Source: a virus (Duplodnaviria > Caudoviricetes). From it: DNA of 61,280 bases. Position 1 is the stretch's first letter, and the number at the start of each line of letters is the position of its first letter. This document shows positions 54,082 through 57,940 of this stretch, one piece after another. The stretch is from positions 1 to 61,280 of the IMG/VR virus record IMGVR_UViG_3300034121_000204; one strand, written 5' to 3'. The notes beneath the pieces were generated by a model. The model was not told the origin of the DNA and made no database searches. It saw nothing but the letters and a program-made list of their open reading frames with translations. Made by a program: the position numbers and the translations under genes.

Positions 54082-54109
54082 AATTATTTTTTGTCAAATA
54101 TACTGAATT

Positions 54110-54660
54110 TTTGGGTAATACCCCCATTCCGCGCAAAAGTTCGCTCGGGGAAAGTGATCTGAAATTTGGGTGGGGGGTGTGCATTTTGACTTTTTGGCTA
54201 GGATTTTCTAGCTTTTTGGCTAGCCGATAGGCTGACATGCGCTCCTATCTTTCGCGCGCTCTGTCCGTCTGTCTGTCTGTCGCTATGGGCATGGCGCGCG
54301 TTAATGTTTGTCTGTCTGTCTGCCTTGCTGTCGTTATTGATACCAAACAAACAAACCTTTGTAATATAAATTCCATTATGTTAAATAGAAATTGAAACCA
54401 ACCAACCAACAGAACGAACAGCTGAACGGCTAACCAATCGAACTACCTACCAAATCGCCGTTAATGTTTTGCTACGTGTTGAGCGTTCGGAAAGGTGGGG
54501 TTAAGTCTAACATACATCTAACAATCTCAAATCAATTTAACACCAATTTATTATAATATCCTTAACTATCTGTTTACTAATAACTTAACCTATTTTTATT
54601 CATGTTCGAACGTGTCGAACTACGTAGTTACACTTAGATTGATCTACGTAGTTTCACGTA
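54110..54660. repeat. non-coding divergence region with short tandem repeats
   Basis: (GTCT)n near 54267 and 54310, (CAAA)n near 54344, (AACC)n near 54396, duplicated TTTTTGGCTAG, CGTTAATGTTT and CTACGTAGTT. Confidence 0.7.
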
Positions 54661-54687
54661 TTTTGCTAACCTTTCAACAAAAAACTA

Positions 54688-54864
54688 TTGACAATCTCAA
54701 TTATCTACCTACCTTTGTTATAAGCAAACGAGCTAAAGAATACAAATCCTTACTAGCAATGTTCAAGACTTAAGATGTACGATAGACGATATTAGATTGC
54801 TTAAGTAACTTCAACAAAAATTTGTTAAAAAGTTTGGAAATGTAAAAAATAGTTTAGACCTTTG
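54688..54864 (+). promoter_or_regulatory. tandem early promoters
   Basis: TTG(54688)...TACCTTTG(54710-54717) and TTTG(54833)...GACCTTTG(54857-54864), each preceded by TTCAACAAAAA. Confidence 0.6.
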
Positions 54865-54869
54865 TAGAA

Positions 54870-55150
54870 GAATAAACGTTCTTTGTTTCTTGTAAAGACT
54901 CACGATGTCAAAAAAATTGTTTCGTAGGTAAGTTCGGTTGTAGGTTATGCGATGACATAAACAAATTGAATGGAAGTAACTAACAATGTAATGATGACAA
55001 GACAAAAAATATGGTGGGAGCAGTTCAGAGATAGCCCATGCCAATAAAACAAAACAAAACTTGTGGTAGTTCGATTCTACCTATATAAATGTGGTGCAAG
55101 TTTAAATATAGCCTTGTTGAACGTAGTGAATATTTCAACAAGGCACTAAC
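54870..55150 (+). ncRNA. candidate structured early leader RNA with T-loop hairpin
   Basis: GGTAG-TTCGATT-CTACC (55065-55081) enclosed by AAACTTG/CAAGTTT; 11-bp stem 55111-55144; further stems 54905-54958 and 55012-55043. Confidence 0.45.
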
Positions 55151-55167
55151 CAATAAATAAATTAGCC

Positions 55168-55350
55168 ATGAAAACAATATTAATTGCTTTTACAATTCTC
55201 AGCGGATTAACAAGCTTTACTACACCAATCGTATGTTTTAATGACGAATACATAATGACTCACTACGAAAGTTATGTCGCTATCCTTTTCTATGGTGGTG
55301 GATTTCTCGCAATGGTATTAAGTATGATATTATCAACACAAAAAAACTAG
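55168..55350 (+). CDS. small membrane protein
   Basis: Two hydrophobic segments; AGCCATG start. Confidence 0.6.
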   Translation: MKTILIAFTILSGLTSFTTPIVCFNDEYIMTHYESYVAILFYGGGFLAMVLSMILSTQKN

Positions 55351-55355
55351 AAATC

Positions 55356-55523
55356 ATGAAAGAATTAATAAACAGAATCAAACACGACATCAAACAAGCT
55401 GAAATAAGAAGAGATGCGTTTGAAATAGGTACAAAAGAATACTCATTTAATCAAGCTACAATTATAGCATTAAAAACAGTTTTATTTGACATTAAAGAAT
55501 TAAGGTTAACTGACGAGGATTAA
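55356..55523 (+). CDS. small hypothetical protein (55 aa) ending inside the ribozyme
   Basis: Read manually (MKELINRIK...LRLTDED). Confidence 0.6.
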   Translation: MKELINRIKHDIKQAEIRRDAFEIGTKEYSFNQATIIALKTVLFDIKELRLTDED

Positions 55524-55558
55524 GTATCCGAAACGGCTATTTATTAGCCGTCTTAACC
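55504..55558 (+). ncRNA. type I hammerhead ribozyme
   Basis: GGTTAA-CTGACGA-GGAT(TAAGT)ATCC-GAAA-CGGCTA(TTTAT)TAGCCG-TC-TTAACC: complete core and three perfect stems. Confidence 0.93.
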
Positions 55559-55903
55559 AATTAAATTAAAAGCCATGTCAACAAAAATTTTAAAAATCGA
55601 AGGACGTTTCGAAATATGGGGATTCTTTTTAAACGGAACGTTAATTAAGACAAGAAAAGTAGTTATTCCATTTCAAAACAGATAGCCATGTTAGGGACAA
55701 TAGTATATGTATCAATGCTGTATTCGGTAGGATTAGTCATTAAATTAATATCAATTAAAAAATGAAAGCTACACTAGAATTTTACTCGCTAAACTATAGC
55801 AAGTTAGTAGTAATGCATAAGCAATTTAACGATATCAACCACATGAATAATTTCATTAGTTATGTCACAAAAAAATTCAATTACACATTAAACGAAATAT
55901 ATC

Positions 55904-56158
55904 ATGAAAGCAATTAACGTAAGAAAATTCTTAGATAAAAGATATCGAAGAGTAACTCAATATAGTTCAGCGAATTGGGGAGGAAATAACGTATGGAATA
56001 TAGATAGTGATGGACAAACAGAGGGAAGATTCATATTTGAAGATGATGAACAGAACTTCATATTGTTAGACAGAACAGAAGAGAACGAAGAAACACAAAT
56101 CGAAGATTTATTTATATACACTATTGGTAGTGGTGAAATTAAAAACTTATTAGTATGA
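55904..56158 (+). CDS. hypothetical acidic early protein
   Basis: 84-aa ORF. Confidence 0.6.
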   Translation: MKAINVRKFLDKRYRRVTQYSSANWGGNNVWNIDSDGQTEGRFIFEDDEQNFILLDRTEENEETQIEDLFIYTIGSGEIKNLLV

Positions 56159-56862
56159 AATTAATATTCAGAATTGGTGATACATTGCAAGTAATAAGCA
56201 AGTCAACCACAAGTAACGACAAGATAGAATCCAACAAGAAAAGAAAGATTGTTCAAACGTACACATTCAGCAGAAAACAGTACGAATTGATTGCAAACGG
56301 AACGAACGATGGTATGAAGACTTTCTTTAATAACGCTGACAAAAATTGTTTAGATTGTCCATTCAATGAATTCGGCAAATGTTATACGCACAAATTCAAT
56401 CAGTATGTTGGTTTTATTAGCATGCTAAAAAGCATCGCGAAAGATCACCCAACATTCGATGACATCCCTACATTCAAGTACGATATGATTCTCCAAGCAA
56501 GACAAATGGCACAAGATACATTCGTTAGATTTGGTACATATGGTGAGCCATCATTGCATCCAATTAAAATGATTGAAGAGATGGCAAATGTAGCAGACAA
56601 TTGGACTGGATATACGCACCAATGGATGCGTAATGACTTGAGTAAATTCTTCATGGCATCTACACATGACATCGATGGTGAAATTGTCGCTAGAAAGCAA
56701 GGATATAGAAGTTACATTGCTACGGAATCAAAGCTAGAAGGAATTGTAAATTGTCCCGCAAGCAAGGAAGCTGGATTCAAATCTACATGCAGTAAATGTG
56801 GATTGTGTAGTGGTACACTAGGAACGAAATCAAATAAATCTATTTACATTTTAAATCATTAA
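56155..56862 (+). CDS. Cys-rich putative Fe-S protein (gp88-like/radical-SAM-related)
   Basis: CLDCPF..GKCY, VRFGTYGEP, WTGYTHQW, FMAS, CPAS...CSKCGLC. Confidence 0.6.
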   Translation: MKLIFRIGDTLQVISKSTTSNDKIESNKKRKIVQTYTFSRKQYELIANGTNDGMKTFFNNADKNCLDCPFNEFGKCYTHKFNQYVGFISMLKSIAKDHPTFDDIPTFKYDMILQARQMAQDTFVRFGTYGEPSLHPIKMIEEMANVADNWTGYTHQWMRNDLSKFFMASTHDIDGEIVARKQGYRSYIATESKLEGIVNCPASKEAGFKSTCSKCGLCSGTLGTKSNKSIYILNH

Positions 56863-56864
56863 CC

Positions 56865-57377
56865 ATGAACGTAAAACACCAAGAGATTATTAACTCATTT
56901 ATTAATGAGTTAAATCGCATCGAAGATTCAAGAAATCAAAACAAAGGATTCAATCTAATCAACATTGATTCATTGAACGAAAAGACAAATGAGATTCAAA
57001 GATTCAAGGAAGAAGCGATTGCAAACAAGCAAGCTTGGGATGATATTGCTAATGAAGAAGCAATTAGGTTAGTTAAATTATTCCAAGAAGATTTACCAAA
57101 TGCATGTGTGCAAAAATATGGAAAGGATACTGGGCATTATGACTTGCCATCCTTAATGATAAGAAGGAATGAGAATTCATCCAAACACTATCAAGATTGC
57201 GTAAGTATAGAAGTTAAAATTTTAACCGAAACAATTAGAGATTCGTTTGGTAATCCTTATTCAAAAGGTCTTAGTTTAGCATATAGATTTAACTATGACA
57301 GAAATGAATTCAATACCATTGAAGAATTAGTTAAGGACAGTACATTTTTAGAATCAATTAGAACACGTGTACTATGA
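56865..57377 (+). CDS. hypothetical protein
   Basis: 170-aa ORF. Confidence 0.65.
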   Translation: MNVKHQEIINSFINELNRIEDSRNQNKGFNLINIDSLNEKTNEIQRFKEEAIANKQAWDDIANEEAIRLVKLFQEDLPNACVQKYGKDTGHYDLPSLMIRRNENSSKHYQDCVSIEVKILTETIRDSFGNPYSKGLSLAYRFNYDRNEFNTIEELVKDSTFLESIRTRVL

Positions 57378-57940
57378 AAGCACAAACATACCTACCACTA
57401 TTCAGTGGTTTCTACAATTCGCATTGGGATGATATTGATTTCTATGATGAGTTAGATCTATTCAATATTCCAAGCGACATGACAATAGATGACTTTGTAG
57501 ATTGGGATAAGTATCACAATCATATCGCTAAGGAAATGTGTAATGAAGTACAGTATCTCTTATCAGATTTTGTATCAGACATTAAATTCGAAAAGATAGT
57601 CAGTCCAAGGTACTACAACTTTGAGAATGACTCAATAGATTGCGAGATTGATTTCAATGAAGAAAAGGTAATGGAATACTTAAACGAAAATCAATATGCA
57701 TTTTCAGTCTATATAAGAGAGCGATACACATCAAGAGATGGATTCATATCAAGCTACGAGAATAATGCATCAGAATGGCTACATGAATGGCAGAATGATA
57801 GTCACAAAGTAGGATCAATCCTACAGTTCATTTGTGCGAACGAAGGATTCGAAGAGCCATGGGATTTAAATGATACTCATATCTCATTATTTTATAACCA
57901 ACAAATATATCAATATGAAAGAGAAAATTCTAGCAACTAA
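57374..57940 (+). CDS. acidic conserved early phage protein
   Basis: LPLFSGFYNS, SPRYYNFEND, YTSRDGFIS motifs. Confidence 0.65.
   Translation: MKAQTYLPLFSGFYNSHWDDIDFYDELDLFNIPSDMTIDDFVDWDKYHNHIAKEMCNEVQYLLSDFVSDIKFEKIVSPRYYNFENDSIDCEIDFNEEKVMEYLNENQYAFSVYIRERYTSRDGFISSYENNASEWLHEWQNDSHKVGSILQFICANEGFEEPWDLNDTHISLFYNQQIYQYERENSSN

What the first reader, a model, noticed from the sequence alone, without database searches (positions are those of the whole stretch)
55504..55558. Perfect type I hammerhead ribozyme in the early operon, overlapping a stop codon
Seen: stem I GGTTAA/TTAACC, core CTGACGA, stem II GGAT/ATCC, GAAA, stem III CGGCTA/TAGCCG and a GTC triplet, predicting cleavage after C55552. 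The upstream 55-aa ORF reads through the core (LRLTDED) and stops in loop II; the next ATG (55575) is 22 nt after the cut. Known: this is the canonical hammerhead consensus. Inference: it processes the early polycistronic mRNA, possibly coupled to translation termination.
Basis: partly seen in the sequence, partly recalled or inferred. Interest (0 to 1): 0.8.

Follow-up and report, generated by a model that had tools for sequence, protein, structure and literature searches.

The report
Genuine hammerhead ribozyme between phage genes
A small self-cutting RNA (a hammerhead ribozyme) really does sit between two tiny genes of this freshwater phage, and it belongs to a very large, uniform group of phage hammerheads, so it is a good but ordinary example of something known since 2011.

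Summary
Window 55504-55558 (+) has every hammerhead core nucleotide and three stems of 6, 4 and 7 bp, and its lowest-energy fold is the three-way junction. No shuffle of 2000 reached these stems.

Comparison settles it. Close relatives keep the core and stem I but change stems II and III by compensatory pairs. Across 129 distinct IMG/VR homologues, 98.5% of cells pair, against 73.7% when shuffled, and 540 cells changed on both sides.

It belongs to a large phage class. Stem I is exactly 6 bp, closed by G-C and flanked by A and A. Loop II is fixed. The cut lies mostly about 19-26 nt before the next ATG.

The stop codon inside the ribozyme is also a class habit. In about half of members the upstream ORF ends on a stop inside the hammerhead.

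Rfam does not score it above threshold. The nearest family is RAGATH-1-hammerhead, 21.5 bits against 56.3.

The most likely role is cutting the replication-side transcript after C55552, as Perreault et al. (2011) proposed for phage hammerheads. Cleavage and transcription are untested, and no RNA data were available.

This scan has noted phage hammerheads many times on other DNA. Verdict: new member of a known kind.

The parts
55503..55559 (+). Type I hammerhead ribozyme including the class-invariant flanking A residues. Hammerhead proper is 55504-55558.
   Evidence: CM R1 scores 71.2 bits. Flanking A found in 99/100 and 100/100 class members.
55504..55509 (+). Stem I, 5' strand GGUUAA. Holds TAA in one reading frame.
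   Evidence: Pairs with 55553-55558. Stem I is exactly 6 bp in 100/100 class members.
55510..55516 (+). Core CUGACGA (C3-A9, N7 = C). Holds TGA in a second reading frame.
   Evidence: Invariant apart from N7 in alignment A1.
55517..55529 (+). Stem II GGAU/AUCC with loop UAAGU. The loop holds the TAA stop (55521-55523) of the upstream ORF.
   Evidence: Stem II covaries.
55530..55532 (+). Core G12 A13 A14.
   Evidence: Invariant in A1.
55533..55551 (+). Stem III: A15.1-U16.1 plus CGGCUA/UAGCCG, loop UUUAU.
   Evidence: A15.1-U16.1 in 129/129. Six of seven pairs covary.
55552..55553 (+). Predicted cleavage site, between C17 (55552) and U1.1 (55553).
   Evidence: Position follows from the hammerhead consensus (established knowledge). 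Cleavage itself is untested.
55553..55574 (+). Predicted 22-nt 5'-OH leader of the 3' product: stem I 3' strand UUAACC plus an A/U-rich leader ending AGCC before the ATG.
   Evidence: The leader is conserved in L002, L004 and L005.
55356..55523 (+). Upstream 55-aa ORF. Its last residues (R)LTDED and its stop are encoded by the hammerhead.
   Evidence: Homologues L311 and L312 keep the ORF-hammerhead overlap; L313 lacks the hammerhead and has a different C-terminus.
55575..55685 (+). Downstream 36-aa ORF (MSTKILKIEG...), first gene on the 3' cleavage product.
   Evidence: Conserved after the hammerhead in L002, L004 and L005, and after a hammerhead in L311.
55168..55350 (+). 60-aa hydrophobic ORF, apparently the first gene of the + strand unit.
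   Evidence: Homologues directly precede the hammerhead in L002, L004 and L005, and follow it in L001.
54082..55167 (.). About 1.1 kb of non-coding divergent region between the virion genes (- strand) and the small-ORF/replication genes (+ strand). Presumed to hold the promoter(s).
   Evidence: TAnnTTTG-like boxes seen by eye. The promoter scans were not significant.

Best explanation
Window 55504-55558 (+) encodes a functional type I hammerhead ribozyme of a widespread phage class. When the + strand unit is transcribed, the RNA folds into the three-way junction and cleaves itself between C55552 and U55553.

The 5' product carries the 60-aa and 55-aa ORFs, complete with the stop codon. It ends in the two ribozyme hairpins with a 2',3'-cyclic phosphate.

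The 3' product starts with a 5'-OH. It has a 22-nt unstructured A/U-rich leader before the 36-aa ORF and the genes behind it. The ribozyme thus separates cistrons of one transcript and gives the downstream message a defined 5' end.

Shown here: the motif, its fold, its conservation by covariation, and its fixed placement relative to stop and start codons across the class.

Inferred: transcription of this strand, cleavage itself, and its effect on stability or translation.
For: Motif and fold:
- Every core nucleotide is present, with stems of 6, 4 and 7 bp.
- The lowest-energy fold is the hammerhead in both 76 nt (z = -3.0) and 221 nt of context.
- 0 of 2000 shuffles match these stems.

Close relatives:
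- Eight hammerheads from this phage clade share core and stem I. Stems II and III differ by compensatory changes. RNAalifold recovers the same structure, with 9 of 17 pairs changed on both sides.

Wider set:
- CM search found 141 matches, 129 distinct.
- 98.5% of cells are paired against 73.7% shuffled. 540 cells changed on both sides against 138. 0 of 500 shuffles reach this. Slid controls pair 26-42%.
- A15.1-U16.1 holds in 129/129 and G10.1-C11.1 in 122/129.

Class uniformity with stem I left free (100 unique members):
- stem I exactly 6 bp in 100/100
- A before it in 99/100 and A after it in 100/100
- H17 is C in 90 and A in 10

Placement:
- The cut lies mostly about 19-26 nt before the first ATG; here it is 22 nt.
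- Upstream ORFs end on stops inside the hammerhead, before the cut, in 58 of 59 and 53 of 54 cases where a frame of at least 40 codons runs in.

Context: same-strand small ORFs followed by replication genes.

Precedent: Perreault 2011 (PMC3088659; passages read) showed in vitro and in vivo cleavage of clustered prophage hammerheads. That paper also noted a halovirus hammerhead 13 nt before an early gene's ATG, with a mapped 5' end nearby.
Against: - There is no RNA evidence. All 20 listed runs that hold the stretch or a part of it are DNA, so transcription and cleavage are untested.
- No Rfam hammerhead model reaches its gathering score. There was no hit at gathering and none at E<=10 on 301 nt. 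On 106 nt the only hammerhead hit is RF03152 at 21.5 bits against 56.3, and RF00163 does not appear.
- The tertiary contact needed for fast cleavage at physiological Mg2+ is only inferred from the conserved loop II and the flanking A residues.
- The upstream ORF is translated through stem I, the core and stem II. Ribosomes would unfold the ribozyme, which could limit cleavage in vivo.
- This phage has a single hammerhead, whereas relatives have up to two. A hammerhead at any one junction is therefore dispensable.
- More distant relatives (47-70% identity on the neighbouring 235-aa protein, L007-L016) show none in the fetched flanks.
Confidence: 0.85

Rival explanations
1. The hammerhead is a portable junction module. 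It bundles stops in the reading frames, a cut site and a standard leader. Its main evolutionary role would be at the DNA level: the conserved roughly 14-nt 5' part and the TTAACCAA 3' part serve as shared homology at which phages exchange small gene cassettes. RNA cleavage would come along as a second function. This is not exclusive of the best explanation.
For: Homology between the window and L002, L004 and L005 starts at 55503, 55498 and 55502, within 6 nt of hammerhead nt 1 (alignment).

Homology with L311 and L312 covers the 55-aa ORF, the hammerhead and the leader, then stops at 55568 and 55577, before a different downstream gene in L312.

L313 has the ORF without the hammerhead, and homology ends at 55509.

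At a second site, L002 and L005 carry a hammerhead that the window lacks. Homology resumes 1-7 nt after its 3' end.

The hammerhead sits before, after or two genes away from the same hydrophobic-ORF gene in different relatives.
Against: Mosaic junctions in phages fall at gene boundaries anyway, and hammerheads sit at gene boundaries. The coincidence is therefore confounded.

The junctions come from a handful of related genomes and are not independent.

The shared stretches are short.

Stems II and III differ between the copies, which argues against recent exchange across the whole element.
Confidence: 0.15
2. Cleavage is gated by translation. The upstream ORF terminates inside the ribozyme, so a translating or terminating ribosome unfolds stem I, the core and stem II. 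Cleavage would then happen only when the upstream ORF is not being translated, or only in a co-transcriptional window. This would couple downstream message fate to upstream translation.
For: The stop codon 55521-55523 lies in loop II, and the ORF reads through stem I and the core.

The same ORF-ribozyme overlap is kept in L311 and L312, where stem II changes and the stop becomes TGA.

Across the class, 58 of 59 and 53 of 54 incoming frames of at least 40 codons stop inside the hammerhead.

Against: The overlap can be explained by genome compaction alone. The invariant hammerhead letters contain TGA, and common stem I sequences contain TAA, so any abutting ORF is stopped there automatically.

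The codon at nt 18-20 is a stop in only 64 of 109 GGTTAA-type members. That is close to what the U-N-A loop pattern gives.

About half of the members have no long frame running in.

No experiment bears on it.
Confidence: 0.12
3. The motif is a chance match, or a decayed and inactive hammerhead or plain hairpin that does not cleave.
For: No Rfam model reaches threshold. Minimal hammerheads without tertiary contacts are slow at low Mg2+ (Perreault 2011 introduction). One close relative copy (L001 3932) has A-C mismatches at the base of stem II, so decay does occur.
Against: 0 of 2000 shuffles match. There is extensive covariation. Every core position is intact in the window copy. Loop II and the flanking A residues are conserved across the class. 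No T-run follows stem III, and no terminator-like site was reported at the hammerhead (the one found lies at 54196-54213).
Confidence: 0.04
4. A single ribozyme cuts many sites. The one complete hammerhead would also cut matching substrate half-sites before other genes in trans, as proposed for other phages in earlier notes of this scan.
For: Only the lead from earlier notes (e1-3293241, e1-6200246, e1-6237059, e1-6240230), plus the fact that this phage has just one full hammerhead.
Against: The substrate half (stem III 3' strand, UC and stem I 3' strand) occurs only once in the window even with 3 mismatches allowed. The stem I 3' strand plus leader motif is not enriched: 3 matches against 1.67 expected. 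A type I hammerhead has stem III closed, so it is built for cis cleavage.
Confidence: 0.01

Closest known systems
Clustered hammerhead ribozymes flanking genes in prophages and phages (Perreault et al. 2011, PLoS Comput Biol, PMC3088659; passages read)
   Same: A consensus hammerhead lies between genes of one transcription unit in a phage, with the proposed role of cutting long transcripts into gene-length mRNAs. A halovirus example sits 13 nt before an early gene's ATG. Close relatives of this phage carry two per unit, and other class members carry up to five in 1.7 kb (L096).
   Different: This phage has a single copy. The read passages of that paper do not mention three points seen here: upstream ORFs ending on stop codons inside the ribozyme, the fixed 6-bp stem I flanked by A/A, and the typical 19-26 nt spacing to the ATG ('stop codon' has 0 occurrences in its main text). 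Its supplementary alignments could not be seen and may contain members of this class.
Rfam RF03152, RAGATH-1 hammerhead ribozyme
   Same: Best Rfam match. It is a type I layout with a short stem I, the same core, a similar stem II/loop II and a long stem III. The hammerhead part aligns throughout (relatives score 25-30 bits).
   Different: The score is 21.5 bits against a gathering score of 56.3. The family's 5' hairpin is absent, and that stretch is coding sequence here. The paper describing RAGATH-1 could not be fetched, so what I say of it beyond the Rfam name is recalled.
Rfam RF00163, Hammerhead ribozyme type I (clan CL00010)
   Same: Same topology (stem I open, stems II and III capped) and the same core. 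Two class members reach 19.9-22.7 bits. From recall, the Schistosoma type I hammerhead has a similar stem II and A-rich loop II that docks on stem I about 6 bp from the core.
   Different: The window copy gives no RF00163 hit at all, against a gathering score of 34. Stem I is not continued beyond 6 bp by an internal loop and a further helix. It ends in an A/A mismatch.
Type I hammerheads in 5' UTRs of RNA mycoviruses that enable translation initiation (Lopez-Galiano et al. 2026, NAR, PMC13725137; abstract read)
   Same: A type I hammerhead lies shortly upstream of an ORF, and self-cleavage creates the 5' end from which the downstream ORF is expressed.
   Different: Those are eukaryotic RNA viruses with cap-independent translation. 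This is a DNA phage with bacterial translation. No functional test exists for the phage case.

Membership tests
Hammerhead ribozyme (class) | Core nucleotides C3 U4 G5 A6 N7 G8 A9, G12 A13 A14, the A15.1-U16.1 pair, and H17 (not G) at the cleavage site | tested here: met
   CUGACGA, GAA, A55533-U55551 and C55552. The core letters were fixed by the search pattern in the class set. Independently, A15.1-U16.1 holds in 129/129.
Hammerhead ribozyme (class) | Three helices radiating from the core, supported by compensatory changes | tested here: met
   98.5% of cells paired, 12 of 17 pairs with changes on both sides, 540 such cells, 0/500 shuffles; an independent RNAalifold run gives the same structure.
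Hammerhead ribozyme (class) | Tertiary contact between stem I and loop II that gives fast cleavage at physiological Mg2+ | tested here: inconclusive
   Stem I is exactly 6 bp, with flanking A in 99/100 and 100/100 members that share one loop II pattern. This suggests a contact. No structure or kinetics are available.
Hammerhead ribozyme (class) | Site-specific self-cleavage giving 2',3'-cyclic phosphate and 5'-OH ends | not testable with these tools
   No RNA run holds the sequence. A bench assay is needed.
Type I topology | Stem I open, stems II and III closed by loops, cleavage site near the 3' end of the motif | tested here: met
Rfam RF00163 Hammerhead_1 | Score at or above the gathering score (34 bits) | tested here: not met
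   No hit. Class members reach 19.9-22.7 bits.
Rfam RF03152 RAGATH-1-hammerhead | Score at or above the gathering score (56.3 bits), including the 5' hairpin of the model | tested here: not met
   21.5 bits, with the 5' hairpin positions deleted in the alignment.
Clustered phage/prophage hammerheads (Perreault 2011) | Located between same-strand genes of a phage transcription unit | tested here: met
Clustered phage/prophage hammerheads (Perreault 2011) | Several hammerheads flanking single genes or short gene blocks | tested here: not met
   One copy in the whole 61,280-bp record. Relatives G001, G002 and G004 have two each.

The most novel reading that the evidence does not exclude
The hammerhead is a universal gene-junction adaptor. 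One 57-nt element terminates an upstream ORF arriving in any of the three frames: TAA in stem I, TGA in the core, and TAA or TGA in loop II. It then cuts the RNA downstream of that stop and hands the next gene a standard short leader.

Because the same conserved ends recur at many junctions, the element would also act as the homology at which phages swap small early-gene cassettes. Because ribosomes terminate inside it, cleavage would be tuned by upstream translation.

All three frames are in fact used by the four closest relatives. Homology breakpoints abut the element on both sides.
Probability: 0.2. Interest if true: 0.6.

Novelty: new member of a known kind. Interest (0 to 1): 0.3.

Why it matters
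What self-cleaving ribozymes do in bacteria and phages is still described as largely elusive (review PMC6765202, passages read).

This copy adds nothing in kind. The class it belongs to is abundant and unusually uniform: a 6-bp stem I with A/A flanks, a fixed loop II, stops embedded in the ribozyme, and a cut typically 19-26 nt before the next start codon.

That uniformity makes it a convenient system for two questions. One is whether cleavage sets mRNA stability or translation of small phage genes. The other is whether such elements help to shuffle gene cassettes.

It also shows that the current Rfam hammerhead models score this class below their gathering scores: the window copy and the members in three related loci.

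Tried and rejected
- **Rfam.** No match at gathering threshold in the whole window. At E<=10 on 301 nt there were only chance-level snoR160 and tmRNA_permuted hits. On 106 nt, RF03152 scored 21.5 bits.
- **Plain-pattern scan without stems.** 23 matches against 14 expected, so uninformative. I replaced it with a stem-aware descriptor.
- **Cultured phages.** No DNA match for 54400-57400. Protein matches of the 235-aa and 636-aa products were all below 60-65% identity to phages of unrelated hosts, so no host could be named.
- **Pfam.** Nothing found for ten neighbouring products.
- **RNA evidence.** No RNA holder was listed for 54900-57400, and the 20 rows that hold it or a part of it are DNA runs from lake, freshwater, aquatic and plankton metagenomes. 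I did not use read laying, because DNA contigs cannot show a cut.
- **Promoters.** The sigma-70-type scan gave fewer sites than shuffles. A TTTG...TAnnTTTG pattern gave 3 matches against 4.3 expected, none upstream of the hammerhead. The promoter is therefore not located.
- **One-ribozyme, many-sites idea.** No further substrate half-sites were found. Rejected.
- **Selection for a stop in loop II.** The codon at nt 18-20 is a stop in 64 of 109 GGTTAA-type members. That is not clearly more than the loop pattern gives, so I make no such claim.
- **Stem I as a universal sequence.** Rejected. With stem I left free, GGTTAA/TTAACC makes up only 15 of 89, and the other stem I sequences covary. One search was a badly designed scan: I left TTAA in the 3' part, which biases stem I. 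I did not use it for counts.
- **Host from bacterial genomes.** The GGTTAA pattern hit 49 stretches. By my own rough arithmetic, about that many chance hits are expected in 596 Gb. Only 14 loci have CM matches of at least 39 bits. Seven of those 14 carry Bacteroidota names, including a complete Paraflavitalea chromosome and long Niabella and Agriterribacter contigs. The rest are small MAG contigs of mixed labels. This is a hint of a Bacteroidota host range for the subclass, not an assignment for this phage.
- **Papers.** The paper behind RAGATH-1 could not be fetched under two ids that I recalled. PMC11702757 mentions only RAGATH-18. Searches for print on stop codons inside phage hammerheads listed nothing relevant. 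Supplements are closed, so the Perreault 2011 alignments may hold members of this class.

Full report
**What is there.** The window is a complete 61,280-bp virus record with direct terminal repeats. The DNA runs that hold it come from lake and freshwater metagenomes. Large virion genes occupy the - strand from about 14 to 54 kb. A non-coding stretch of about 1.1 kb follows. From 55168 a run of small + strand ORFs leads, across the record's ends, into genes for a DNA methyltransferase, exonucleases, a primase/helicase and a helicase. The finding lies between the second and third small ORFs.

**Check of the observation.**
- GGTTAA 55504-55509
- CTGACGA 55510-55516
- GGAT-TAAGT-ATCC 55517-55529
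- GAAA 55530-55533
- A-CGGCTA-TTTAT-TAGCCG-T 55533-55551
- C17 at 55552
- TTAACC 55553-55558

In hammerhead numbering, all invariant positions are met (C3, U4, G5, A6, G8, A9, G12, A13, A14, A15.1-U16.1, H17). The topology is type I.

The 55-aa ORF (55356-55523) reads through stem I, the core and stem II as ...LRLTDED and stops on TAA in loop II. The next ATG is 22 nt after the predicted cut. The lowest-energy fold of 76 nt is exactly the three-way junction (z = -3.0), and it persists within 221 nt of context.

A stem-aware descriptor of my own finds this one site on both strands. In 2000 dinucleotide-preserving shuffles of the window, 10 gave any type I hammerhead with stems of at least 4/3/4 bp, and none gave 6/4/7. 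In a scan of about 250,000 windows such odds would still allow a few chance hits, so I relied on comparison.

**Comparative evidence.** I used the neighbouring 235-aa product as a handle and fetched 16 related IMG/VR loci.
- The five close relatives that have upstream flank (about 90% identity; L001-L005; L006 begins 2 nt before the gene) carry hammerheads with the same core and stem I. Their stems II and III differ: GGAT/ATCC, TCC/GGA, GATT/AATC and GTCT/AGAC for stem II, and CGGCTA, CGGCAA, CGACAT, CGTGAC and TGCCGTA for stem III. RNAalifold recovers the hammerhead structure from these eight sequences on its own.
- A covariance model built from them (R1) finds one copy in this phage. In five related records it finds two copies in each of three and one strong match in each of the other two. 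It finds none in the fetched flanks of the more distant relatives L007-L016.
- The model then aligned 141 matches, 129 of them distinct. On these, 98.5% of cells form standard pairs (73.7% after shuffling; 26-42% when the partner is slid). Twelve of 17 pairs change on both sides, in 540 cells. No shuffle of 500 reaches the score. A15.1-U16.1 holds in 129/129 and G10.1-C11.1 in 122/129.

The pattern did not constrain stems II and III, so this is a fair test. The alignment was fitted to the model, which favours it somewhat. The hammerhead is real and maintained by selection.

- In the 80 listed loci, 89 of 90 unique core matches complete a type I hammerhead. Stem I is 6 bp in 88 of 89. GGTTAA/TTAACC is merely the commonest stem I (15 of 89), and the others covary, for example GTCAAA/TTTGAC and GTCTAA/TTAGAC.
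- In 100 unique members from the new loci alone, stem I is exactly six contiguous pairs in 100/100. It is closed by G (94) and C (94). It is preceded by A in 99/100 and followed by A in 100/100.
- The window copy fits this pattern (A55503, A55559). The fixed length, the A/A flanks and the shared loop II suggest the tertiary contact that natural hammerheads need. That is an inference.
- The first ATG after the cut lies mostly 19-26 nt downstream.

**Stop codons inside the ribozyme.**
- Among 113 unique members with stem I free, a frame of at least 40 codons runs into the hammerhead in 59. In 58 of these it stops before the cut, mostly at nt 8 (the core TGA, 28 cases), nt 4 (14) and nt 18 (7).
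- Among 119 members of the GGTTAA set the figures are 54 and 53, with stops at nt 4 (26), nt 8 (20) and nt 18 (6).
- The four closest relatives use all three frames: TAA in stem I (L004, L005), TGA in the core (L002) and TAA in loop II (the window). The window's frame is the minority one.
- The 55-aa ORF has three homologues. Two end ...RLTDE[DS] inside a hammerhead, where stem II has covaried and the stop has become TGA. The third has no hammerhead and a different C-terminus. The last residues of this protein are therefore ribozyme sequence.
- With a type I layout the cut lies 3' of these stops, so the upstream message keeps its stop codon.
- I do not claim that the loop II stop is selected. 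It occurs in 64 of 109 members, close to what the U-N-A loop pattern gives.

**Junctions.**
- Homology between this phage and L002, L004 and L005 begins within 6 nt of hammerhead nt 1.
- Homology with L311 and L312 covers the ORF, the hammerhead and the leader, and ends at 55568 and 55577.
- At a second site, relatives have a hammerhead that this phage lacks, and homology resumes just after it.
- In L001 the hammerhead lies before, not after, the hydrophobic-ORF gene.

The element thus sits at mosaic junctions. Gene boundaries are where such junctions fall anyway, and the genomes are related, so an active role in recombination remains a minority reading.

**How it most likely works.** On transcription of the + strand the RNA folds and cleaves after C55552.
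- The 5' piece carries the first two ORFs, a stop codon and two terminal hairpins.
- The 3' piece starts with a 5'-OH and a 22-nt A/U-rich leader ending AGCC-AUG.

This matches the role proposed for phage hammerheads by Perreault et al. 2011, who showed cleavage of clustered prophage hammerheads in vitro and in E. coli. They also noted a halovirus hammerhead 13 nt before an early gene's ATG (PMC3088659, passages read). A 2019 review still calls the bacterial roles largely elusive (PMC6765202). Whether cleavage changes stability or translation is not known. A eukaryotic-virus parallel for translation exists (PMC13725137, abstract).

**Against this reading, and what is missing.**
- There is no RNA evidence.
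- No Rfam model reaches threshold. The nearest is RF03152 at 21.5 bits against 56.3, and it lacks that family's 5' hairpin.
- Ribosomes on the upstream ORF would unfold the ribozyme.
- The hammerhead is dispensable at individual junctions among relatives.
- A one-ribozyme, many-sites arrangement, suggested by earlier notes of this scan, is not present.

**Verdict.** This is a new member of a known kind. This scan has noted phage hammerheads many times on other DNA, including look-alikes of this very element. Interest is modest. It comes from the uniform class features rather than from this copy.

Noticed in passing
window 54255-54330 and 54395-54445: The divergent non-coding region holds runs of short repeats (GTCT/GTCTGTCT-like units, then AACC/GAAC-like units). 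They may belong to an origin or a regulatory region.
   Followed up: no
window 55163-55170, 55570-55577, 55684-55691: Three successive small genes start in the same context, (T)AGCCATG, after an A/T-rich stretch with no Shine-Dalgarno-like sequence. A 25-codon hydrophobic ORF (ATG 55689, read by eye) lies below the ORF-list cut-off and overlaps the next start.
   Followed up: no
L096 1258-2955; L097; L105 3733-5226: Other IMG/VR phages carry four or five hammerheads of this class within 1.5-1.7 kb, one before each small gene. L097 gives eight matches with the covariance model.
   Followed up: partly
L001 3932-3986 and L002 3308-3361: Two relatives' copies have a weakened base of stem II: A-C mismatches in L001 and a U-U at 10.1-11.1 in L002. 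These may be decaying or slow variants.
   Followed up: no
L355 3832-3898 and 3995-4073: Two hammerheads of the GGTTAA subclass lie 100 nt apart in the complete chromosome of Paraflavitalea speifideaquila BL16E. This is presumably a prophage, and a possible culturable system for the class.
   Followed up: no
window 56155-56859: The 235-aa product downstream has a Cys-rich motif. It matches only an unknown-function PHROG and hypothetical proteins of Mycobacterium and Gordonia phages at about 30-37% identity.
   Followed up: partly
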